From contig CAWAUI010000004.1 of assembly GCA_963785165.1 (NCBI GenBank), positions 3,712,074-3,776,073 of the forward strand: 64,000 nucleotides of DNA, written 5' to 3'. This DNA is from Thermoanaerobaculaceae bacterium (lineage in GTDB: Bacteria > Acidobacteriota > Thermoanaerobaculia > Multivoradales > UBA5704). Both the position numbers and the translations under genes were made by a program. Each line of letters begins with the position of its first letter. Position 1 is the first letter of the stretch. The notes beneath the pieces are model-generated. The model made no database searches. It was not told the origin of the DNA and was given only the letters and a program-made list of their open reading frames with translations. Below are positions 4,505 to 63,908 of the stretch, piece after piece.

Positions 4505-7165
4505 TTACGGGTTCGAACCGCTCCAGGCGCTGGTGTTGCCGCTCTCGAAGCCGTCGTTGAAGATGCCGCCCGCCGTGCAGACGTCCGCGCTGGAGACGTT
4601 GACGGAGTCGACGAACCAGCCGGTGGACGCGATGCTGCTGTCGTCGCCCTCGTGCCAGCGCAGCTGGATGCTCGAACCCGCGAAGGCCCCGAGGCTGGCG
4701 GTGACCTTGGTCATCGCACCGATCGTACCGTTGCACCAGGCCCGCTTGCCGCCGATCGGGTTCATGTGGCTGGTGGACACGGTGCCGTTGAACCCGCCCG
4801 CCGTGAAGGCCGCGTCCGGCAACACCGTCCAGGGGCCGCCGCCGACCGAAACCTCCAGCGTGCCGCCGTCGAAGCACGTGGTCGTGTTCTCGAACGCGAA
4901 GGTGTGCCAGAAGTTGAGCACGGAGGCAGCCGAAGGCACCATGGCGGGGGTGACCAGGACCCGGTCGGAGACGATGGTCTGGCTGGCCGAGGACCAGGAG
5001 TGCGTGGGCGTCTGCGACTGCGAGGTCGACCATGCCCAGTCGGTGGCCCCCGCCACCGGCGCGTGCGTCCAGCCCGGATTGTCGAAACCGCCGGGACCCT
5101 CGAAGGTCTCGTCGAGCAGGGTGGAGACCGGGCCGGTGACCGTGGCGCTGCGCTGCACGGTGTTGGGGTCGGCGACGCTGTTCCCGCCGTCGACCGCGCG
5201 CACGACGTAGAAGTAGGCCGTGCCGCTGACGAGCATCGAGGTGTCGGTGTAGCCCGTGCCGGTGACTCCCGAGGCGATCAGGTTGGCCGGACCCGGCACG
5301 AAGCCGGTGGTGGTGGAACGGTAGACGTTATAGGTGACCGGACCGCCGCAGTTGGCGGTGGCCGCCGCCCAGGCGAGGGTGATGCCGCAGGAGGTGGCCC
5401 CGTTGTTGGTGGCGCCGGCCAGCCCCGCGAAGGCCGGCGGCAGCGTGCAGGCGCCGGTGGCCGTGGCCTGGACGCAGCTCGACGGGGTGGATTCGCAGAA
5501 GCCGGTGGCATCGCGGCCGGTGACGCGGAACGCGTAGGTCGTGCCGCCCGAAACCGTGGTGTCGTTGAACGGCGAGCCGGCGACGGCGGGGCCGACCACG
5601 GAGAAGGTTCCGGGGGAGGCGCAGGTCCCCGAGGCGCGGTAGACGTTGAACGACGTCGAGGAGGGCGCGCCGTCGCTCCAGGTGACCTGGATGGTGTTGG
5701 GCGCGGTCGCCGTGGCGGTGCCGATGGCGGGCTGGCCCGGAGGGGTGCAGGGGCCGATGCCGTCGATGGCCATGGCGCCGGTGTTGCCGGCGTCGAGCCA
5801 GTTGGAGAGGCGGGTGCTGTTGGTGCCGCCGCCGGTCCAGGAGACGCCGAAGCGGCCGTAGATGTCCGACAGGTTGTCGCCGGTGGCGCCACAGGCGGAG
5901 GGGCCGCCATGGAGCTGGCCGATGAAGCGGCCGGCGGCGTCGTAGAGCGGCGAGCCCGAGGAGCCCGGCTCGGTCACGCCCGGCACGGTGAACGGTCCGG
6001 GAGGATCGGTCGCCCAATGCACCCAGATATGAGTGCCGTCGCCCGGGGTGGGCGGCGGAGCGCTGGCCCAACTGCTGGGCACCATGGTGGCCACCGAGTA
6101 GGTGATGCGCTTCTCGTCCGTGCTCGGGTGGTGGATGGAGGTGCAGGGAGCCCCGGGGGTGCAGGTGACGTTGCCGGTCGAGCGGTCCCAGCCTGCCCAA
6201 AAGTGGTTGAACGCCGGAACCGGCGGATCGTCGAGCTCGACCAGGGTGAAGTCGGAGGCCGCGGAAGCGGCGCGGAAGAAGGAGCCGGTATGGAACTGGG
6301 TGAGCGTTCCGTCGCCCGGCTGGCCGCTCTGGGCACTGCCCGGCGTCCGGCAGAACGAATTCTGGAAGTTCCAGAAAGCCACCAGCGAGCCGGAGTTGCC
6401 GGAGTTGATGCTGCAGTGGTTGGCGGTGATGAAGTACATCTTGTGGTCACCGGCCGTGTCGTTGATCAGCGATCCGGTGCAGAAGGTCGAGCCGCCGGTC
6501 GAGATCACCGCCACCGCCTGCATCTGCACCCGCCAGGGGTCGCCGGCGTCGAGGCACTCGACGTCGAGGTTGCAGCTTCCCGACTTGACCAAGGGGGTCG
6601 TGCCGAAGCCCCGGTAGCCCTGGTTGATGGACCCCAGCTCGAGCACCACCTCGTCCTTCTCGTTCGCCTGCACCGTGAGCTCGACGACGACGTCGTCGCT
6701 CAGCACCGGCGGCGTCCACAGCTGGCCGTGCTCTTCGTTGTCGGCGGCGGTGAAAGCCCGCAGCTTCTCCTTGCCGTCCGTCGAGTAGAGGAGCAGGCTG
6801 GCGTGCTCCGGCAGCTTGTAGCCCGTGAAGCCGAGGTTGATCGAAGTCGTCCCCTCGCGGCCGAGGATGCGCAGGCGCCAGAGCATCCTGCCATCCGGCA
6901 GGGTCTCCCAGGTGCCGCGGGCGGCGGGCGTGATCGAGACCGCCTCCGGGATGGCGTAGCGCGGCGGCAGCCCCTGGCTGTCGCGCGCCTCGTCTTCCCT
7001 GGCGATCGCCAGAAGGTCCAGGGGCGATCCCAGCACGGAGTCGATCCGGCTGACGTCCATCACCGGAAACTGGCTGGCGGTGGGATTGACGGCCTGGGCC
7101 ACCAGTCCAGCGGCGTTGCCCAGCAGCGTCAAGGCGAAAACGATCCCCAGCGCACGCATCTTCAT
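4505..7165 (-). CDS. secreted trypsin-fold (S1, lysyl-endopeptidase-like) serine protease with FN3-like modules and C-terminal beta-sandwich
   Basis: 886-aa ORF with AAGGAGG upstream of ATG and a signal peptide. Motifs ITANHC (His) and EPGSSGSPLYD (Ser). Two FN3-like modules. Tail IFNDGFESGNTSAWSGSNP. Confidence 0.8.
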   Translation of the reverse strand: MKMRALGIVFALTLLGNAAGLVAQAVNPTASQFPVMDVSRIDSVLGSPLDLLAIAREDEARDSQGLPPRYAIPEAVSITPAARGTWETLPDGRMLWRLRILGREGTTSINLGFTGYKLPEHASLLLYSTDGKEKLRAFTAADNEEHGQLWTPPVLSDDVVVELTVQANEKDEVVLELGSINQGYRGFGTTPLVKSGSCNLDVECLDAGDPWRVQMQAVAVISTGGSTFCTGSLINDTAGDHKMYFITANHCSINSGNSGSLVAFWNFQNSFCRTPGSAQSGQPGDGTLTQFHTGSFFRAASAASDFTLVELDDPPVPAFNHFWAGWDRSTGNVTCTPGAPCTSIHHPSTDEKRITYSVATMVPSSWASAPPPTPGDGTHIWVHWATDPPGPFTVPGVTEPGSSGSPLYDAAGRFIGQLHGGPSACGATGDNLSDIYGRFGVSWTGGGTNSTRLSNWLDAGNTGAMAIDGIGPCTPPGQPAIGTATATAPNTIQVTWSDGAPSSTSFNVYRASGTCASPGTFSVVGPAVAGSPFNDTTVSGGTTYAFRVTGRDATGFCESTPSSCVQATATGACTLPPAFAGLAGATNNGATSCGITLAWAAATANCGGPVTYNVYRSTTTGFVPGPANLIASGVTGTGYTDTSMLVSGTAYFYVVRAVDGGNSVADPNTVQRSATVTGPVSTLLDETFEGPGGFDNPGWTHAPVAGATDWAWSTSQSQTPTHSWSSASQTIVSDRVLVTPAMVPSAASVLNFWHTFAFENTTTCFDGGTLEVSVGGGPWTVLPDAAFTAGGFNGTVSTSHMNPIGGKRAWCNGTIGAMTKVTASLGAFAGSSIQLRWHEGDDSSIASTGWFVDSVNVSSADVCTAGGIFNDGFESGNTSAWSGSNP

Positions 7166-10982: not shown

Positions 10983-12214
10983 GCTTCCGCTCCGCCGCCG
11001 TGACGCTCTGCGGCATGCTGCTCGCCGCCGGGGCGATCCTCTGGCTCTTCAACCGCCAGATCTCCGGCACCTGGCGGCTGGGCCTGCAACCGGAGATCAC
11101 CACGGCCCTGGAGCAGTCGCTCACGGACCAGAAGGCCCTGGCCAAGCTCGATCCCGGGCGCAAGGCCGAGTACCGCGCACGCTTCGAAGCCAACCAGAAA
11201 GTCCTCCAGCGGCTGTTGATCCTCCACAGCAACGAGAAAGACATCACCCGGCGCTGGGAGCTGATCCTGCTGGCCGCCGTCCTGGCCGTGCTCGGCGTGG
11301 CGGGCGGCGCCCAGATGATCCGCCAGGGGCGCCTCGACGCGCGCATCGAGCGCCTGCGGCTGGCCCTCGTGGCCCTCTCGGCCGGCGAGGAGGAGCTGGA
11401 GATCGGCGACCGTGGGCGGGACACGCTGGGCAGGATCGCCGGCATGATCGAGGAGACCTCCCGGGCCATGGCGCGGGACAGGAAGCGCCTCGCCTACCTC
11501 AAGAACCTCTCCGTCTGGCAGGAGACGGCCCGGCGGCACGCCCACGAGATGCGCACACCCCTGACCGCCGCCCGCCTGGAGCTTTCCCGCCTCCAGAGGC
11601 TCCTCGAAGGGGCGGAGCAGGACGACGCGCGCCAGGTGGCGGTCAGCGTGGGCGAGGAGCTGGAGCGGCTGGGCCGCTTCACCCAGCAGTTCACCTCCTT
11701 CGCCCGCCTCCCCCAGCCCCGTACGGCGGTGCACGACCTCGGCACCGTCGTGGAGGAGTTCGTGGGCACCTTCGCGAACGCCTGGCCGAATCTCACCCTG
11801 CGCTTCGAACCGGCAAGCAAGCCCTTGCCCGCGGCGCTCGACCGCGACATGCTCCGCCAGGTGTTGGTGAACCTCTGCGACAACAGCTCGCTCGCCCTCA
11901 AGAGCCAGGGGGAAGGGGCTCAGGGAGAAGGGGACAACCGAGGCACGGTGACCCTGCGGCCGGGCGAGGCGGGGCGGAGCGTTTTTCTCGACGTGGCGGA
12001 CGACGGCCCCGGGATCTCGCCCGAGATCCGCTCCCGGGTCTTCGAGCCCTACGTCACCACCCGGCAGGTGGGCGAGGGGATGGGCCTGGGGCTCGCCATC
12101 TGCAAGAAGATCCTCCTCGATCACGGCGGTGACCTGGAAGTCGCGGGCAGCTCCGGAGCGGGCACGACCTTCCGGCTCACCTTTCCCCGGCGCGTGGAGG
12201 ACGTTGCGGCATGA
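10979..12214 (+). CDS. membrane sensor histidine kinase
   Basis: ATG 10979 overlaps the upstream stop (ATGA). Two TM helices. H-box [14 protein letters not shown]. ATPase boxes [24 protein letters not shown]. Confidence 0.85.
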
Positions 12215-13760: not shown

Positions 13761-15806
13761 TCACTGCTTCTGTGAAACCCGCGCGGCCCGGATTTCCTGC
13801 GCCGCCCGGGCCAGGGCCGCCTTCAGCTTGTCGATGTCCACCGGCTTGACCAGGTGCTCCAGGAAGCCGCACTCGCTGCTGCGGCGAAGGTCTTCTTCCA
13901 TGCCGAAACCGCTGACGGCGATCCCCTTGAGGCCGTAGCGGTCCCGCAGCTCGCTCATCAGCTCGAAGCCGGTGCCGTCCGGCAGGCCCAGGTCGCTCAC
14001 CACGAGGTCGAATTCATGGCTCTCGGCGAGCCGGCGGGCGGTGCGCACGTCGGGCGCAGGCTTGACGTCGTGGCCGGCCAGCTCCAGGAGCGTGGTCATG
14101 ACGTCGAGCGTGGGCTCGTTGTCTTCCACCAGGAGAAGGCGGAGGGACAGCGGCGGCGCCTCGGCGGGTCCGGGCGCGGCCTCGGCCGGAATGGTCGCCC
14201 GGGGCGGCGCCACCGTCGCGAGGGTGACGGTGAACGTGGCTCCCTGGCCCCGGCCGGGGCTCAGGCCCGACAGCTCGCCCCCGTGCTGGTCGACCAGGGC
14301 CTTGCAGATGGCGAGGCCCAGCCCGAGACCGCCGAAGGTGCGGGGGATCGCGGCGTTCCCCTGCTCGAAGGCGTCGAACAGGCGCGGCAGCTCGCCGGGG
14401 TCGATACCGATGCCCGGATCGATGACCGAGACTTCGACCCGGCCCGGCTCGGGGTTGCGGGTGCGGACCGTGATCCGCCCCCCTTCGGGCGTGAACTTGA
14501 CGGCGTTCTTGACCAGGTTCCAGTAGACCTGCTGGAGCCGTGCCGAGTCGGCCCAGACGTGGTGACCGGTGGCGCCGGGCTCGAGGTGGATGCGCAGGCG
14601 GGCGTTCTCCACCCCTTCCGAGCAGATGGCCACGACGTGCTCGAGCAGGGAGTGCACGTCCGTGACCTCGCAGTGGAGGGCGAGCTTGCCGCGCGAGACG
14701 CGGGTCAGGTCGAGCAGGTCGTCGATCAGCTTCGCCTCCAGCTCGACGTTCCGGCGGATCATCTGCAGGTCGGCGCGGAGCGACTCCGGCAGGTCGGGCG
14801 ACTGGGCGAGCGCGGACACCTTCATGAGAACCGGGGTGAGCGGCGTGCGCAGCTCGTGGCTCAAGGCGGCCAGGAAGTGGTCCTTGGCCTTGCTCGCGGC
14901 CTCGGCCCGGCCATACAGGCGGGCGTTGTCGATGGCGAGCGAAGCACGCGAGGCCAGCCCCTCGGCCAGCTCCAGATCCTGGGGTCCGAAGACTCGCCCG
15001 GAGCCGGAGGTGGCGAGTTGCATGACGCCCAGAATGTCTCCCCGCGCGGCCAAGGGGACGAAGAGGGACGAGCAGCCCGGCGGCTCGCACCCCTCCTCCG
15101 GCACGAGCTCGCTCTGGCCGGTCTGAACGACTCGCCATAGACAACTTTCGGGGGAGTCCTGAAGACCCTGGCCCAGCCGCCGGAGGGCGTCTTCCTGGGC
15201 AGGATCGGCGTGGCGGAGCGCCACCAGCCGCAGCTTCGGCCCCTCCTGGAGCTCGAAGATCAGCCCGTAGTCCGCCAGCCGGGGCACCGTGAGGTGCACG
15301 AGGCTCTGGAGGGTTTCCTCGTGGTCGAGGGACTCGGAGAGCACGCTCCCCGCCTCGGCGAGCAGCGCGGCGCGGATCTCCGCCCGCTTGCGGTCCGTCA
15401 AGTCCAGCACGAAGCCAACCGCCTCCTGGCTGTCGGGCTGCAAGGCGGCGCCGGTCAGGATGGGCACCCGGCTGCCGTCGCCGCGCCGGTATTCCTTTTC
15501 ATAGGGAAGGCAGGTGCCGGAGGTCATCAGCTCGACCATGGCCCGCGCATCCGCTTCCTCCCACCCGGGAGCCGTGAGGTCGATCCAGCTCAGCTCCCCG
15601 CGTTCCAGCTCCTCGCGGCTGCGGCCCACCGCCGAGAGAAAGGCGTCGTTGGCGGCCAGGATCCGGGTGTCCGGCCCGGCATGGAAGATGCCGAGGACGT
15701 TCGATTCGAACAGGCGCTCCGCCGGCGGAAGCGACCGCTCGGCGTAGAGGCGGAAAGCCGGATCGCTTTCCTGCCGGAGCATCCGTGGGCGCGGGAACGT
15801 TGACAA
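13761..15806 (-). CDS. hybrid sensor histidine kinase (PAS-GAF-HisKA-HATPase-REC)
   Basis: 681-aa ORF. H-box SHELRTPLTP, G-box [15 protein letters not shown]-terminal receiver LLLVEDNEPTLDV...SDLGLPDGTG. PAS-like N-terminus and a GAF-like middle region. Confidence 0.85.
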   Translation of the reverse strand: MSTFPRPRMLRQESDPAFRLYAERSLPPAERLFESNVLGIFHAGPDTRILAANDAFLSAVGRSREELERGELSWIDLTAPGWEEADARAMVELMTSGTCLPYEKEYRRGDGSRVPILTGAALQPDSQEAVGFVLDLTDRKRAEIRAALLAEAGSVLSESLDHEETLQSLVHLTVPRLADYGLIFELQEGPKLRLVALRHADPAQEDALRRLGQGLQDSPESCLWRVVQTGQSELVPEEGCEPPGCSSLFVPLAARGDILGVMQLATSGSGRVFGPQDLELAEGLASRASLAIDNARLYGRAEAASKAKDHFLAALSHELRTPLTPVLMKVSALAQSPDLPESLRADLQMIRRNVELEAKLIDDLLDLTRVSRGKLALHCEVTDVHSLLEHVVAICSEGVENARLRIHLEPGATGHHVWADSARLQQVYWNLVKNAVKFTPEGGRITVRTRNPEPGRVEVSVIDPGIGIDPGELPRLFDAFEQGNAAIPRTFGGLGLGLAICKALVDQHGGELSGLSPGRGQGATFTVTLATVAPPRATIPAEAAPGPAEAPPLSLRLLLVEDNEPTLDVMTTLLELAGHDVKPAPDVRTARRLAESHEFDLVVSDLGLPDGTGFELMSELRDRYGLKGIAVSGFGMEEDLRRSSECGFLEHLVKPVDIDKLKAALARAAQEIRAARVSQKQ

Positions 15807-59785: not shown

Positions 59786-59812
59786 GCTGGAAACCCGCCA
59801 AGGAATGAGGAA

Positions 59813-59847
59813 AGGGGAGAGCCTGCATGGGCTCTCCCCTTTTTCTT
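59813..59847 (+). terminator. rho-independent terminator
   Basis: 11-bp stem aggggagagcc / ggctctcccct with a 6-nt loop, followed by ttttctt. Confidence 0.7.
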
Positions 59848-60108
59848 CGCTTCAGCTCGCGTTTTGCAAAACGAACAAGGATCTCCTTACCGAATCACGT
59901 CTCGTCGCCAAAACCGGAACTGGCCTCTCACGGACTGGAACGAACGGCTCGCGGGAGTCAAAAGTTGTCCCGCTATCCGAAGCGGGCCTCCCATCATGCG
60001 TCTCGAGGAGCGTAGAGGCGAGAGTCGTATACTGCCTCGGCATCGCCCGATTACCATGCCAACTGGCCCGATGAGTTGTAACCAACGGTAAGGCTTGGCT
60101 GAAGCAGA

Positions 60109-60137
60109 GTGCCCCCGCCTCACCGTGGCAGGGGCAC
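60109..60137 (-). terminator. terminator-like hairpin just downstream of the small peptide gene
   Basis: gtgcccc (60109-60115) / ggggcac (60131-60137) plus an inner gcc/ggc pair. UCUGCUUC follows on the minus strand. Confidence 0.4.
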
Positions 60138-60145
60138 CCGGAGTA

Positions 60146-60298
60146 TCAGTTGCAACGGTTCGAAGTCACCGTTACCGTGGGGCAGACACTGTCATCCGAC
60201 CACGCGCCCCCGGCCACCTTGTCCAGCTCCAACCCGTTGAGCTGACGGAGGGTTTCCTTCGAGATCTCGAGCTTGTTGACGGCCTTTGCCTTTTTCAT
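60146..60298 (-). CDS. 50-aa double-glycine-leader peptide precursor (bacteriocin/RiPP-type), not in the ORF track
   Basis: Hand-translated: MKKAKAVNKLEISKETLRQLNGLELDKVAGG | AWSDDSVCPTVTVTSNRCN. AGGAAAGGAAG SD 5 nt upstream. Leader positions L-12, E-8, L-7, V-4, G-2, G-1 match the double-glycine consensus. The 19-aa core is Ser/Thr-rich with 2 Cys. Confidence 0.65.
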   Translation of the reverse strand: MKKAKAVNKLEISKETLRQLNGLELDKVAGGAWSDDSVCPTVTVTSNRCN

Positions 60299-60468
60299 GA
60301 TTTCTTCCTTTCCTCAGACGTCATGGTTCGATCACTGCTTCCGGAACGGGACTGCAGAGGTATACGCGGCAGCACCGATATTGTTTTGGAAATCCAGGCC
60401 AGAAAAATACTTCGAAACTCAGCAAGATTTGACAAGAAACCGCGGCGCGGCAGTGGTATCCTGTGGGT

Positions 60469-61647
60469 TCAAGGCTTCAGCGCCTCGACGTTGCGGCAGG
60501 AAGCTTCGTGCCCGCCGTCGCACGCCTTGCGGAACAGGCTGAGAGCCCGCTTTTCGTCCTTGGGAACACCGTCGCCGAAGTAGAGGAGATCGGCGAGGTT
60601 GGCGCAGCCGAAGGCATTGCCTCCGTCGCAGCTCTGGGCGAAATAGGCGGCGGCTCCGGGCTTGTCGACGGGCGCTCCCTGGCCGTCGCGATAGAGCACT
60701 CCGAGGTTGAAACAGGCCGTGGGATCTCCGCGCTCGCACCGGCTCCCCGCGCAGGCTCGGCGGTAGAGCACCGTGGTGCGCGCCTGATTGGCTGCGGTTC
60801 CCAAACCCTTTTCGTAGAGGTACCCGAGATTGGTGCAGCCGAGAAAGCTTCCCAGGTCGCAGGCCCTCTCATAGGCGATCAGGGCGCGGTCGTAATCCTG
60901 AACGGTGCCTCGATGCGCCTCGAAATGCAGACCGACGTTGTAGCAACCCGGCCCGTCGCCGCTCGTGCAGGCTTGCTGATAGAGGGCAAAGGCCTCGTCA
61001 TCGTTCTTGACGCCTCCCCGGCCCGTGGCGAACAGGAACGCGAGGTGAGCGCACCCGGCGCCGCTCCCGCCGCCGCAGGCACGGCGGAAAAGGGTCCGGG
61101 CCTGAACCTCGTCGCCCGCCTGAAGAGTCAGGTAACCAAATTGGGCGCACCCCTTGGCGGATCCCGCTTCGCAGGCTTGCCGGAAGCGATCGAAAGAGCC
61201 CTCCAGCACGCCCAGGCGATAACAGGCGGCGGCATCGCCGTTCTCGCACGCGGGTCCGTCGAGATCCATGGCATTGGCCAGGGTGACCGTCTTCGCCATT
61301 CTCTCCGTCCCATGGAGAAAGACGAGCTTTACTTTCTGCCCCGGCTTCCGGTCGGCCACGGCGAGATCCAGATCACAGGGATGATCGATCCGTTTTCCAT
61401 CGATCGCCTGGACGAGATCCCCTTCCACCAGTCCGGCGTCCGCGGCCGGACCCCTGGGCCGCGAGATCCTGGAGAACCGCGCCGGAAACACCTTTCGCGG
61501 CCCAGCACGGCGGGCAGCTCCAGCGAGGCGCCCAGTGTGGCGGGGCCGTCGGGACGACGCCGGTCCGCGGAGGAGCGTCCTTCTCCTCGCGCAGCCGAGA
61601 GCAAGGAACAGACAGAGAACAGGTCCAGCGAAGATCCGAGCCCTCAC
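60469..61647 (-). CDS. lipoprotein with PDZ domain and Cys-rich Sel1-like repeats
   Basis: GTG 61647 overlaps the GH44 stop (GTGA). Lipobox LFLALGC. PDZ-like GPAADAGLVEGDLVQAIDGKRI. About 7 Sel1-type repeats (GCxxLGxLY...G...D...A...Y..AC). The N-terminal linker may hide further frame errors. Confidence 0.75.
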   Translation of the reverse strand: MRARIFAGPVLCLFLALGCARRRTLLRGPASSRRPRHTGRLAGAARRAGPRKVFPARFSRISRPRGPAADAGLVEGDLVQAIDGKRIDHPCDLDLAVADRKPGQKVKLVFLHGTERMAKTVTLANAMDLDGPACENGDAAACYRLGVLEGSFDRFRQACEAGSAKGCAQFGYLTLQAGDEVQARTLFRRACGGGSGAGCAHLAFLFATGRGGVKNDDEAFALYQQACTSGDGPGCYNVGLHFEAHRGTVQDYDRALIAYERACDLGSFLGCTNLGYLYEKGLGTAANQARTTVLYRRACAGSRCERGDPTACFNLGVLYRDGQGAPVDKPGAAAYFAQSCDGGNAFGCANLADLLYFGDGVPKDEKRALSLFRKACDGGHEASCRNVEALKP

Positions 61648-63908
61648 GGGTTCCAGGCGGCCACGCTGCCGCTTTCAAAGCCGTCCGCGAAAATCAGGCT
61701 CGAAACGGGAATCTGGACGCGGGCGAGCGTGACGCTTCGCCCGGGGATTGAGGCCGTAAAACCCGAGGGCGTAGCCGTGAGCGTGCCGGCGGCGGCGAGG
61801 CCCGTACCGTCCAGGCGCCAGAGGTCGGCGTTGCTGGTGACGCCTCCGGCCACGGCGACCGTTACGTCCCGCGATACGCTGTCCTTGTTGAACAGGAGCA
61901 CGAAAAGCTTTCCATCGGCGGAGCGCACGGCGTAGCTCGCCACCCCGTCCACCTCGCTCGACACCGCCCGCACCGAGTCGCCGCTCACCCGCGAGCCCAC
62001 GCCGTCGTAGTTGCGGTAGAGGCGGAACGCGTCCTCGGCCAGGCTGCCCGACTCCGGCGCCACCCAGCGCGTGGCCATGTCGAGCCCCTCGCGGCCGAAA
62101 ATGGCGAGCGCCTCGGCCTGGGCCAGCGCGCCGGAGGGCGTGTCGTCCTTCCCCCACTTGTACTCGGCCAGGGCGAGCTTCATCTCGGGGCAATAGGTGT
62201 CGCGCCAGGCGCGCATCCTGGGAATCAATTGCACGATTTTTATGGTGAGGTCGGAGATCCAGGATTCCGACTCCCAGGTGGGATCGTAAAGCTCCTTGAG
62301 CGATCGCAGGCGCGCTTCCACGGTGGCCTCATCGTCTTCCACCGACGGGTTGCCGGAGAGCCCCGCGACTCCGTTTCCCTGCGGATAAAAGTGGATGTCC
62401 AGCCAGTCCACCGGCAGATCACCGGCCGCCGGATGGCCCGCGGGCAGGCGGTGGGCGCACGACTGCTGCATGTACCACGCGGGCCACGCCAGGCCGCCGT
62501 GGGCGTTGCGGTCCGCGCCGGTGATGCAATCTCCGGCCGCGGCGTCCTGGGCCGAGGTCCAGAAATCGCACCACCCCCAGGTCTCGGGGCCGAGGATCTC
62601 GGCGCCCGGATCGCGGCTCTTGATCTTGGTGGCCGCCGCCAGCCCCTTGGCCCAGACCTCGTCGTAACCGGGCGGCGATGGATGGACGTCGCGGTGCGTG
62701 CTGTTCCAGAGCATGGGCTCGTTGTCGAGATTATAAAAACGGACCCCGGTGGTCGCGGCGGGCCAAAGGTATTGACCAGATGCGTCACGAAGTCACCCAC
62801 GTGGGCGTCGAGGCTCACCGCCACCGAGGTGTCCGAGGCGGTGTTGCCGGTGATGTACCGCAGCCCCGGCGAGCCCGGCACGGCGGGGCTCGAAGGGTTG
62901 CAGCAGCGCACGCCGCCCGCGCAGAGGGTGGTGTTCACAAGAGGATCGCAAATCCCGTTGCCATTGTTCGAGCAGCCCGGCACACCGGGATTGACGGCGC
63001 ACTCCGTGCCCGTCTGCGGGCCGTATTTCGTGGTCGAGAATCCGGGATTGCGCGCCGAGGATTTCGCCACCTGGTCGATCGGCATCGTCATCACCACCTC
63101 GGCGCCGGCCGCAAGGGTGGCAGTTGACGAAGCTGTCCGCCGCGGCTCCGTTCGAGCCGCCTTCGTTGATGTTGAGGAAGTAGTAGTCGAAAGCGCGGTT
63201 CGACGTATCGAAAATCCAGTTGTAGCGCGTGGTGCCGTTGCCGCCCCGCCGGTTGGCCGTGTAGAGGCCGGTGGCGAGCTGCGCCGTGCCGGCCCAGTTC
63301 ACGCCATAGATCAGGGGATTGATGGCCCGACGGTCGAGATTGGGATCCACCGTCACCGTGACCGGCCCCCCGGGCGGCGGCCCGCCGTCCACCTGAACCA
63401 GCTCGAGATCGTCCACGTACGCCGTCGCCTGGTTCGCGGGCGCGTTGGCCTGGAAGACGATGCCGTCGAACGAGGGCGCCGTGACGCCGAGCTCCGCCCA
63501 GGTCAGGGTCATCTGGGTCCAGGCGTCGGGCAACGGTGTGAGGTTCTTCGTTCCGATCTCCACGTTGTTCCGGTAGATCGCCAACCTCACAGCCTGCCGG
63601 CCGCCGGCGCCGTTGATCCAGAACCGCACCGAGGAGAACGCCGCCACGGCCGGGTCCGCGGCCCCGGGGTCGCTGTGGAAGTAGATCCCCTGCCAGTCGC
63701 CGCCCACGGCATCCGGCTCCCAGGAGATGGCATTGGGAGGGCTCTGGTGGATCAGGGTCTGGGAGAAGTTGCGGGTCGCCCACCCCCAGTCCTGCCAGCC
63801 ATTGCGGAGGGCGTTGTCGTAGATCGTCTGGACGGCCGCGCCGGCCGATCCCGAGAGGGTCAGGCCGATCCAGAGAACGGCCCAGGAAGAACGGCGGAGC
63901 GTGCGCAC
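61644..63908 (-). pseudogene. secreted GH44-like glycoside hydrolase with N-terminal carbohydrate-binding-like module, two frameshifts in this sequence
   Basis: GTG start after GGGAGG, signal peptide present. NRRGGNGTTRYNW and FYNLDNEPMLWNSTHRDVHP (GH44-type, from memory). Frame breaks near 63100-63123 and 62745-62760. Tail LIFADGFESGSVAAWNP. Confidence 0.7.

What the first reader, a model, noticed from the sequence alone, without database searches (positions are those of the whole stretch)
60146..60298. Hidden 50-codon gene for a double-glycine-leader peptide (orphan bacteriocin/RiPP precursor)
The ORF is absent from the ORF track (under 60 aa). It reads MKKAKAVNKLEISKETLRQLNGLELDKVAGG-AWSDDSVCPTVTVTSNRCN. 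A good SD sits 5 nt upstream and a hairpin follows 8 nt after the stop, in an A/T-rich spacer. The leader fits the canonical double-glycine consensus (L-12, E-8, L-7, V-4, GG). It also shows the K-L-x-[LI]-x-K-E-T-[LI]-x-x-L pattern of GG-type natural-product leaders. The 19-aa core has 7 Ser/Thr and 2 Cys, compatible with a disulfide-bridged or lanthionine-type product. No C39-peptidase ABC exporter or modifying enzyme lies within the window, so it would be processed in trans. Upstream on the same strand are the GH44-like gene and the Sel1/PDZ lipoprotein gene.
Basis: partly seen in the sequence, partly recalled or inferred. Interest (0 to 1): 0.7.

Follow-up and report, generated by a model that had tools for sequence, protein, structure and literature searches.

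The report
Stand-alone lanthipeptide precursor gene, conserved core
A real, conserved 50-codon gene encodes the precursor of a probable lanthipeptide (a ribosomal peptide with sulfur cross-links); it is an ordinary kind of gene, but this family has an unusually conserved core and nearly always sits far from the enzymes that would mature it.

Summary
The ORF exists as described, on the minus strand (60146-60298). It has an SD-like tract 5 nt upstream and a 13-bp hairpin 6 nt after the stop.

It is a real gene. About 80 distinct homologues were found. dN/dS against the closest relatives is 0.13-0.20. The start, SD, upstream block and terminator hairpin are conserved.

The leader (residues 1-31) passes NCBIfam NF038153, "class I lanthipeptide leader L1a" (23 bits, cut-off 22). 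It carries the published LxLxKx5L…GG motif. Peptides with the same leader lie inside complete LanB/LanC/C39-ABC clusters (L021, L022, L076).

The core decapeptide [AG]WSD[DE]SxCPT is 89-90% conserved. It is kept even in Longimicrobium, where the leader is different. Five members lack a second Cys, so a disulfide cannot be the conserved feature.

No LanB, LanC or C39 transporter lies in the 64-kb window. One of 66 family loci has a LanC nearby. The rest of the window's genome could not be searched.

It is a new member of a known kind, of moderate interest.

The parts
60146..60298 (-). Coding sequence of the 50-aa precursor peptide, including the TGA stop
   Evidence: ORF. About 80 unique homologues. 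dN/dS is 0.13-0.20 against L071 and L073. It is the only ORF in the window that matches the family leader HMM.
60206..60298 (-). Leader peptide, residues 1-31 (MKKAKAVNKLEISKETLRQLNGLELDKVAGG)
   Evidence: NF038153 lant_leader_L1a covers residues 1-31 at 23 bits against a cut-off of 22. It carries the LxLxKx5L motif and GG end described for class I LanAs (PMC7268733). L-12, E/D-8 and L-7 are conserved across the family.
60149..60205 (-). Core peptide, residues 32-50 (AWSDDSVCPTVTVTSNRCN), with the conserved decapeptide [AG]WSD[DE]SxCPT
   Evidence: W33, S34, D35, S37, C39 and P40 are invariant in 77 sequences. Mean pairwise identity is 0.89 for residues 32-41, 0.54 for the leader and 0.38 for the tail. 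The core invariance is partly by construction, because the loci were fetched with a core pattern.
60304..60315 (-). Shine-Dalgarno-like purine tract GAGGAAAGGAAG, ending 5 nt before the ATG
   Evidence: Sequence. Nearly all of the 69 family upstream regions printed show an equivalent GAAAGGAA, GAGAGGAG or GGAG tract 5-9 nt upstream.
60316..60437 (-). Conserved upstream non-coding block, the presumed promoter or regulatory region (TCTTGTCAAATCTTGCTGAG ... CAAAACAA ... GCGTATACC)
   Evidence: The blocks are nearly identical in the four close relatives L071-L074, although the synonymous distance of the CDS is 0.37-0.44. The sigma-70 consensus scan called no promoter here, so the function is inferred.
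60107..60139 (-). 13-bp G+C-rich stem-loop 6 nt after the stop, a probable intrinsic terminator with no clear T-run
   Evidence: -34.3 kcal/mol, z = -2.75. In 69 of 73 family members the 70 nt after the stop fold below -20 kcal/mol, typically as a long G+C-rich hairpin of different sequence.
60439..60454 (-). Terminator-like hairpin plus T-run just after the upstream Sel1/PDZ gene, which separates it from the peptide's transcription unit
   Evidence: The only terminator-like site in the scan. The Sel1/PDZ gene ends at 60469.

Best explanation
The ORF is a stand-alone gene for a class I-type lanthipeptide precursor (LanA).

**Shown**
- It is a protein-coding gene under purifying selection.
- It has its own conserved upstream region, SD and terminator hairpin.
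- Its first 31 residues are an L1a, LxLxKx5L…GG-type class I lanthipeptide leader.
- Its core carries an almost invariant [AG]WSD[DE]SxCPT decapeptide.

**Inferred mechanism**
1. The leader docks the peptide onto a LanB dehydratase and a LanC cyclase encoded elsewhere in the genome.
2. Ser34 (or Ser37) is dehydrated, and Cys39 adds to it to give the conserved N-terminal lanthionine ring.
3. Cys49, where present, closes a second, variable ring on one of Thr41 to Ser46.
4. A C39-peptidase ABC exporter cuts after the G[GA]/AG doublet (Gly31 here) and secretes the 19-residue product.

The biological activity, antibiotic or signal, is unknown.
For: **Gene reality**
- 17 word-search homologues at 60-92% identity.
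- 25 genome loci and 39 metagenome loci.
- dN/dS of 0.13-0.20.
- Synteny with L071: GH44-like, Sel1/PDZ, peptide, PQQ_2-like.
- Conserved SD, upstream block and downstream hairpins.

**Leader**
- NF038153 scores 23 bits against a cut-off of 22.
- 59 of 77 family members match it, best E = 6e-8.
- The motif fits the description in PMC7268733.
- Same-leader peptides sit in PCAT-LanA-LanC-LanB (L021), LanA-LanC-LanB_N-LanB_C-PCAT (L022) and LanC-LanA-LanC-LanB (L076). The L076 core starts AWTDSC.
- A profile search finds 284 50%-identity clusters of such peptides. The listed hits nearly all have Cys- and Ser/Thr-rich cores, and many begin [AG]-[WYF]-[ST]-[DE]…C.

**Link to LanC in relatives**
- L009 has two family peptides 3 kb from a LanC.
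- That LanC keeps the G.AHG, WCYG and CHG motifs. Its own adjacent peptide has the same leader type.
- The genomes of L001 and L002 carry a homologous LanC on the same contig or chromosome as their orphan peptides.

**Thioether rather than disulfide**
- 5 of 77 members have Cys39 as their only Cys after the motif.
Against: - No LanB, LanC or C39-ABC gene lies in the 64-kb window.
- None lies in the flanks of 65 of 66 family loci, about 600 kb in all, 20 of them with at least 5 kb on both sides.
- The single LanC near L009 is close to what chance allows. The estimate is mine: about one LanC per 6-Mb genome gives roughly 0.1 expected in 600 kb.
- No LanB was seen near any family member.
- Neither the LanC nor the LanB search showed a protein on the window's 5,893,072-bp contig among the 120 hits listed. 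This does not settle the question either way.
- The leader score is only 1 bit above the cut-off.
- No chemistry was observed.
Confidence: 0.6

Rival explanations
1. A double-glycine-leader peptide that is only cleaved and exported by a C39 ABC transporter. It would be linear or disulfide-bridged (Cys39-Cys49), and act as a class II-like bacteriocin or a signalling peptide without lanthionine.
For: The leader has the canonical L-12, E-8, L-7, hydrophobic -4 and GG positions. No dehydratase or cyclase is linked in the window or in 65 of 66 loci. Most members have two Cys.
Against: The conserved part contains a single Cys, and 5 members have no second Cys. Invariant Ser34 and Ser37 next to Cys39 fit a thioether motif that recurs in peptides from LanBC clusters. 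The window peptide's only NCBIfam match is the class I lanthipeptide leader model; no bacteriocin-leader model matched it.
Confidence: 0.15
2. A RiPP precursor matured by other chemistry. One route is a stand-alone LanC acting without LanB, through an unrecognised dehydration route. Another is a radical SAM or other enzyme acting on the W-S-D-D-S-x-C motif, for example a Cys-Asp thioether of the ranthipeptide type.
For: In five loci of relatives of the Holophagales type, LanC sits next to a conserved L1a-leader peptide and no LanB lies within 10 kb on either side: L009, L028, L030, L031 and L080. The core, not the leader, is the conserved element, and it is kept under a different leader in Longimicrobium. 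One member weakly matches the GG-type rSAM-target model TIGR04149, E = 0.007, below its cut-off.
Against: No radical SAM or other candidate maturase recurs next to the family. LanB could simply be elsewhere in those genomes, which was not testable. Closely similar leaders are served by ordinary LanB plus LanC in L021, L022 and L076.
Confidence: 0.15
3. A chance ORF in high-GC non-coding DNA, or part of the 162-aa antisense ORF at 60095-60583 on the plus strand.
For: Short ORFs are abundant in this 67% GC window. The antisense ORF is longer.
Against: Purifying selection acts in the peptide frame. There are about 80 homologues across two phyla. The start and SD are conserved. The antisense frame is broken in relatives, with the longest open stretch falling from 163 aa to 59-86 aa.
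Confidence: 0.02

Closest known systems
Class I lanthipeptide precursors with the LxLxKx5L…GG leader (NCBIfam NF038153 lant_leader_L1a; described for Bacteroidetes by Walker et al. 2020, PMC7268733)
   Same: The leader motif, its length and its GG-type end. The core is rich in Ser/Thr and Cys. Same-leader peptides are served by LanB, LanC and a C39-ABC exporter.
   Different: The host is Acidobacteriota-like rather than Bacteroidetes. The gene is a stand-alone unit far from any maturase. The family core is strongly conserved, and I found no description of it in the papers searched.
Prochlorosins (ProcA precursors and ProcM, class II lanthipeptides of marine cyanobacteria)
   Same: Precursor genes lie far from the synthetase and are matured in trans, as stated in PMC7268733. 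That the leaders end in a double glycine and are removed by a C39 transporter is from my own knowledge.
   Different: Prochlorosins use one LanM enzyme and Nif11-type leaders. From my own knowledge, they combine a conserved leader with hypervariable cores. Here the N-terminal core is the most conserved part, and the leader type can be swapped.
Pinensins (class I lanthipeptides of Chitinophaga pinensis; NCBIfam NF038180 leader_pinensin)
   Same: Class I lanthipeptides of Gram-negative soil bacteria. The Longimicrobium members of this family have leaders (MKKLTLxLxELxVxSF) whose best NCBIfam match is the pinensin leader.
   Different: Those matches are below the cut-off: 12.8-17.8 bits against 24. 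The window peptide does not match the model at all. The cores were not compared.
Nisin and gallidermin type class I lantibiotics
   Same: The presumed LanB/LanC chemistry. A ring forms from a Ser close to the N-terminus of the core onto a Cys that lies next to a Pro.
   Different: Those peptides have an FNLD-type leader removed by a LanP subtilisin (own knowledge) and the lipid II motif SxxxCTP(G/S)C (PMC7268733). Here the sequence is S-x4-C-P-T, there is no lipid II motif, and the ring segment is acidic (DD).

Membership tests
Class I lanthipeptide precursor, L1a leader type (NF038153) | The leader matches the curated HMM at or above its cut-off | tested here: met
   23.0 bits against a cut-off of 22, residues 1-31 on model positions 1-32. 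59 of 77 family members match at E <= 0.01. The margin for the window peptide itself is narrow.
Class I lanthipeptide precursor, L1a leader type (NF038153) | LxLxKx5L motif and a Gly-Gly-type leader end (PMC7268733) | tested here: met
   L10-E-I12-S-K14-ETLRQ-L20 and G30-G31. Position 12 is Ile here and Leu in 48 of 77 members.
Class I lanthipeptide precursor, L1a leader type (NF038153) | The core contains Ser/Thr and Cys able to form (methyl)lanthionine | tested here: met
   6 Ser/Thr and 2 Cys in 19 residues. S34, S37 and C39 are invariant.
Class I lanthipeptide precursor, L1a leader type (NF038153) | LanB dehydratase and LanC cyclase encoded next to the precursor (customary but not obligatory) | tested here: not met
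   None in the 64-kb window. Of 66 family loci, only L009 has a LanC, and none has a LanB. Unlinked precursors are known for prochlorosins (PMC7268733).
Class I lanthipeptide precursor, L1a leader type (NF038153) | LanB and LanC present somewhere in the same genome | not testable with these tools
No protein on that contig appeared among the 120 listed LanC or LanB hits. The genomes of L001 and L002 do have a LanC.
Class I lanthipeptide precursor, L1a leader type (NF038153) | Thioether cross-links in the mature product | not testable with these tools
   This needs mass spectrometry or NMR.
Double-glycine (C39/PCAT-processed) leader peptides | Consensus at L-12, E-8, L-7, a hydrophobic residue at -4, and G-2 G-1 | tested here: met
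   L20, E24, L25, V28, G30 and G31. Across the family, L20 occurs in 64 of 77, E/D24 in 67, L25 in 68, A/V28 in 74 and G30 in 61. The final doublet varies among GG, GA and AG.
Double-glycine (C39/PCAT-processed) leader peptides | A C39-peptidase ABC exporter in the locus or genome | tested here: inconclusive
   Absent from the window and from all family loci. Present beside same-leader peptides in L021 and L022. The genome could not be searched.
TIGR04149 GG-type rSAM-modified RiPP precursors | HMM match and a neighbouring radical SAM maturase | tested here: not met
   No match for the window peptide even at E <= 10. One of 77 members matches at E = 0.007, below the cut-off. No recurring radical SAM neighbour was found.
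Unmodified disulfide-bridged (class II-like) bacteriocins | A conserved Cys pair | tested here: not met
   Only Cys39 is invariant. 5 of 77 members have no further Cys.

The most novel reading that the evidence does not exclude
The [AG]WSD[DE]SxCPT peptides would be a widespread soil family, in Acidobacteriota and Gemmatimonadota, of free-standing RiPP genes. The core, not the leader, would be the selected element. They would be matured in trans by the stand-alone LanC that in relatives of the Holophagales type is paired only with its own L1a-leader peptide and has no LanB nearby. That would mean a LanB-independent route to the thioether. It would also favour a conserved signalling or metal-binding role over an arms-race antibiotic.
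Probability: 0.15. Interest if true: 0.7.

Novelty: new member of a known kind. Interest (0 to 1): 0.42.

Why it matters
The finding adds an apparently undescribed lanthipeptide family with a conserved core, from little-cultivated soil Acidobacteriota and Gemmatimonadota.

Genome miners that look only near LanB or LanC would miss it, because the precursor genes stand alone. The same core under two unrelated leader types, and LanC-peptide pairs without LanB, give testable leads on how leader and core evolve separately and on trans-maturation.

If the mature peptide is bioactive, it is a short synthetic target of 17-19 residues.

Tried and rejected
**Neighbourhood analysis (guilt by association)**
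- I clustered the ORFs of 70 loci. The recurring neighbours are housekeeping synteny: AhcY, serpin, GlnRS, and in Longimicrobium a CMAS methyltransferase, a patatin-like protein, a BlaR1-M56 protein and an amidohydrolase.
- The one exception is a DoxX-like membrane protein with no Pfam or PDB match, upstream in 7 loci of one subtype only. It is not present in the window.

**Finding the maturase in the window's own genome**
- The peptide look-up did not return the 5.89-Mb contig.
- I looked for contig length 5,893,072 among the LanC and LanB homologues. It was not among the 120 listed in either search, which is inconclusive.

**Other negatives**
- Rfam found nothing at the gathering thresholds, and only chance-level hits in the spacer.
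- The sigma-70 scan called no promoter.
- The ATP-dependent ligase-like gene that lies after the peptide in L071 and L072 has left no remnant in the window's spacer.
- An alignment-based covariation test of the hairpin was uninformative because the hairpins do not align. The single-sequence folds were used instead.
- The antisense 162-aa ORF was rejected.
- Literature searches for lanthipeptides in Holophagae or Acidobacteria found nothing specific.

Full report
**1. The observation**

The ORF is present exactly as quoted, on the minus strand at 60146..60298. It begins at the first ATG after an in-frame stop.

- A purine tract GAGGAAAGGAAG (60304-60315) ends 5 nt before the ATG.
- A 13-bp G+C-rich stem-loop (60107-60139) begins 6 nt after the TGA. 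It folds at -34.3 kcal/mol, z = -2.75 against dinucleotide shuffles.
- The surrounding spacer has 52-61% GC against 67% for the window. "A/T-rich" is therefore only relative.
- The 19-residue core has 6 Ser/Thr, not 7, and 2 Cys.
- A terminator-like hairpin with a T-run (60439-60454) follows the upstream Sel1/PDZ gene. The peptide gene therefore looks like its own transcription unit.

**2. Is it a gene?**

A 50-codon ORF means little in this DNA. Conservation settles the question.

- A word-based protein search found 17 clusters at 60-92% identity.
- A scan of one genome per species found 25 loci, and a metagenome scan found 39 more. Together they give about 80 distinct peptides.
- Against the closest relatives with DNA (L071, L073-L075), dS is 0.37-0.44 and dN is 0.06-0.07, so dN/dS is 0.13-0.20.
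- L071 is syntenic with the window: GH44-like (86% identity), Sel1/PDZ (65%), peptide (90%), PQQ_2-like (74%).
- The SD-like tract recurs 5-9 nt upstream in nearly all of the 69 family upstream regions printed.
- About 140 nt upstream are almost invariant among the close relatives.
- In 69 of 73 members the 70 nt after the stop fold below -20 kcal/mol. The folds are typically long G+C-rich hairpins of unrelated sequence.
- The overlapping antisense 162-aa ORF is not kept open in relatives.
- Rfam finds no RNA family here.

**3. What kind of peptide?**

- The only NCBIfam match is NF038153, lant_leader_L1a, "class I lanthipeptide". It covers residues 1-31 at 23 bits against a cut-off of 22. Pfam gives only sub-threshold type-A lantibiotic hits.
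- 59 of 77 family members match NF038153, best E = 6e-8.
- The leader carries the LxLxKx5L motif followed by Gly-Gly. Walker et al. describe this for class I LanAs whose clusters often encode a C39 protease (PMC7268733).
- Three peptides share only the leader, and all three lie in textbook clusters:
  - L021 (Thermoanaerobaculia): C39-ABC, peptide, LanC, LanB.
  - L022 (Actinomycetota): peptide, LanC, LanB N-terminal protein, LanB C-terminal protein, C39-ABC.
  - L076: LanC, peptide, LanC, LanB.
- The L021 and L022 peptides pass NF038153 at 29.8 and 28.8 bits.
- An exhaustive profile search finds 284 50%-identity clusters of such peptides. The listed hits nearly all have Cys- and Ser/Thr-rich cores. 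Many cores start [AG]-[WYF]-[ST]-[DE]…C, as here and in L076.

**4. The family's own features**

- Within the family the decapeptide [AG]WSD[DE]SxCPT is the most conserved part. Mean pairwise identity is 0.89 for it, 0.54 for the leader and 0.38 for the C-terminal tail. W33, S34, D35, S37, C39 and P40 are invariant.
- Caveat: both locus scans used a core pattern as bait, so this invariance is partly by construction. The unbiased profile search shows near variants such as WSCDGVCP, WSDGSICP and WSEQSVCP.
- Longimicrobium (Gemmatimonadota) carries the same core under an unrelated leader, MKKLTLxLxELxVxSF…. Its best NCBIfam match is the pinensin lanthipeptide leader, below the cut-off.
- Five of 77 members have no Cys other than Cys39. 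A Cys39-Cys49 disulfide therefore cannot be the conserved feature. A thioether from Ser34 or Ser37 to Cys39 is the simplest reading.
- The literal GG is not conserved (AGG, AGR, AAG, GQA, KGA and others), but a G[GA] or AG doublet 1-3 residues before the Trp is kept in the L1a-type members.
- Several loci carry 2-3 tandem paralogues: L009, L024, L038, L045, L047, L051 and L059. L039 and L057 carry other L1a-leader peptides beside the family member.

**5. Where are the enzymes?**

- The window has no LanB, LanC or C39-ABC gene. This was tested by phmmer with the L021 and L022 proteins and by Pfam scans of 23 large window ORFs.
- The window has no second L1a-leader ORF.
- Of 66 family loci (about 600 kb of flanks, 20 loci with at least 5 kb on both sides), only L009 has a LanC. 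It lies 3 kb upstream of two tandem family peptides. None has a LanB or a PCAT.
- The L009 LanC keeps the G.AHG, WCYG and CHG motifs. It is followed by its own conserved 63-aa L1a-leader peptide.
- The same LanC-plus-peptide pair recurs in L028, L030, L031 and L080, with no LanB within 10 kb on either side.
- L028 lies on the same 1.98-Mb contig as the orphan peptide of L001, about 1 Mb away. A LanC homologue (L029) lies on the same chromosome as the peptide of L002, about 3.2 Mb away.
- Genomes that carry the family therefore do carry a cognate-looking LanC at a distance.
- For the window's own genome, a 5,893,072-bp contig, I could not test this.

**6. Most likely mechanism**

Shown: a translated, selected, free-standing gene with a class I L1a/GG leader and a conserved Ser-Cys core.

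Inferred:
1. Leader-guided dehydration by LanB and cyclisation by LanC, both encoded elsewhere.
2. A conserved N-terminal ring onto Cys39 and a variable second ring onto Cys49.
3. Removal of the leader and export by a C39-ABC transporter.

Confidence is about 0.6. The rivals are:
- cleavage and export only, as a linear or disulfide peptide (0.15);
- other chemistry, including a LanC-only route or a radical SAM enzyme (0.15);
- a spurious ORF (0.02).

**7. Comparison and novelty**

The peptide works like, and passes the sequence tests for, the known class I lanthipeptide precursors with LxLxKx5L…GG leaders. Co-localisation with LanBC is not met, but this is customary rather than defining; the prochlorosin precursors are a precedent. 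The product chemistry is untested.

It differs from the described cases in host phylum, in being a stand-alone unit, and in pairing a conserved core with an exchangeable leader. No paper on lanthipeptides of Holophagae turned up.

I rate it a new member of a known kind, of moderate interest (0.42). The more novel reading, trans-maturation by a LanB-less stand-alone LanC of a conserved, possibly signalling peptide, is not excluded (probability about 0.15).

Noticed in passing
L009:5300-6561 and 6619-6810; L028:10001-11251 and 11309-11500; L030:10001-11251 and 11311-11511; L031:1323-2573 and 2633-2833; L080:10001-11281 and 11293-11484: A two-gene module conserved in relatives of the Holophagales type. 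It pairs a stand-alone LanC with a 63-66 aa L1a-leader peptide whose core reads …SQSIQSGET[YF]CWC..TC.CC… . No LanB lies within 10 kb on either side in any of the five loci. The dehydratase, if there is one, is unlinked or unrecognised.
   Followed up: partly
window 61644-63908 (-): The GH44-like gene is split over three reading frames, with breaks near 62714-62793 and near 63090. The L071 orthologue is continuous across the 62714-62793 break; the 63090 break lies beyond the end of the L071 fragment. This is either a pseudogene or indel errors in the assembly.
   Followed up: partly
window 59786-60145; L071:3027-3629; L072:276-844: The close relatives have a 200-aa ATP-dependent DNA/RNA-ligase-like gene between the peptide gene and the convergent PQQ_2-like gene. 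The window has about 360 nt of non-coding DNA there, and no remnant of the ligase is detectable.
   Followed up: yes
L015:7518-9749, L042:7755-9785, L051:806-2182, L060:8298-9767; truncated copies in L047, L052 and L059: A roughly 430-aa multi-pass membrane protein lies directly upstream on the same strand in seven loci whose peptides are of the …CPTT.PS..(K/R)PC or longer-tailed subtype. It resembles DoxX only weakly and has no significant Pfam or PDB match. It could be an immunity or partner protein, or simply clade synteny. It is absent from the window.
   Followed up: partly
window 60095-60583 (+): A 162-aa ORF runs antisense across the peptide gene and its promoter region. It is not kept open in relatives and is probably spurious.
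   Followed up: yes
L039:1508-1690 and 5924-6120; L057:9654-9835 and 14680-14875; L063:8767-8930: Some family loci carry additional L1a-leader peptides with quite different Cys-rich cores, for example …GG-ATTTCPPTVTCADTCGPSC… . No maturase lies nearby. These are multi-precursor loci without enzymes.
   Followed up: no
L015:10050-12365; L080:1-2477: Other natural-product genes lie close to family members or to the LanC module. An NRPS (condensation plus AMP-binding domains) lies right after the peptide in L015. Lasso-peptide-like genes (Asn synthase homologue plus PqqD) lie about 7.5 kb or more upstream of the LanC in L080.
   Followed up: no
window 60316-60437 (-): The upstream non-coding block (TCTTGTCAAATCTTGCTGAG…CAAAACAA…GCGTATACC) is more conserved among close relatives than the synonymous sites of the CDS. 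This suggests a regulatory element beyond a simple promoter. No Rfam family or sigma-70 consensus matches it.
   Followed up: partly
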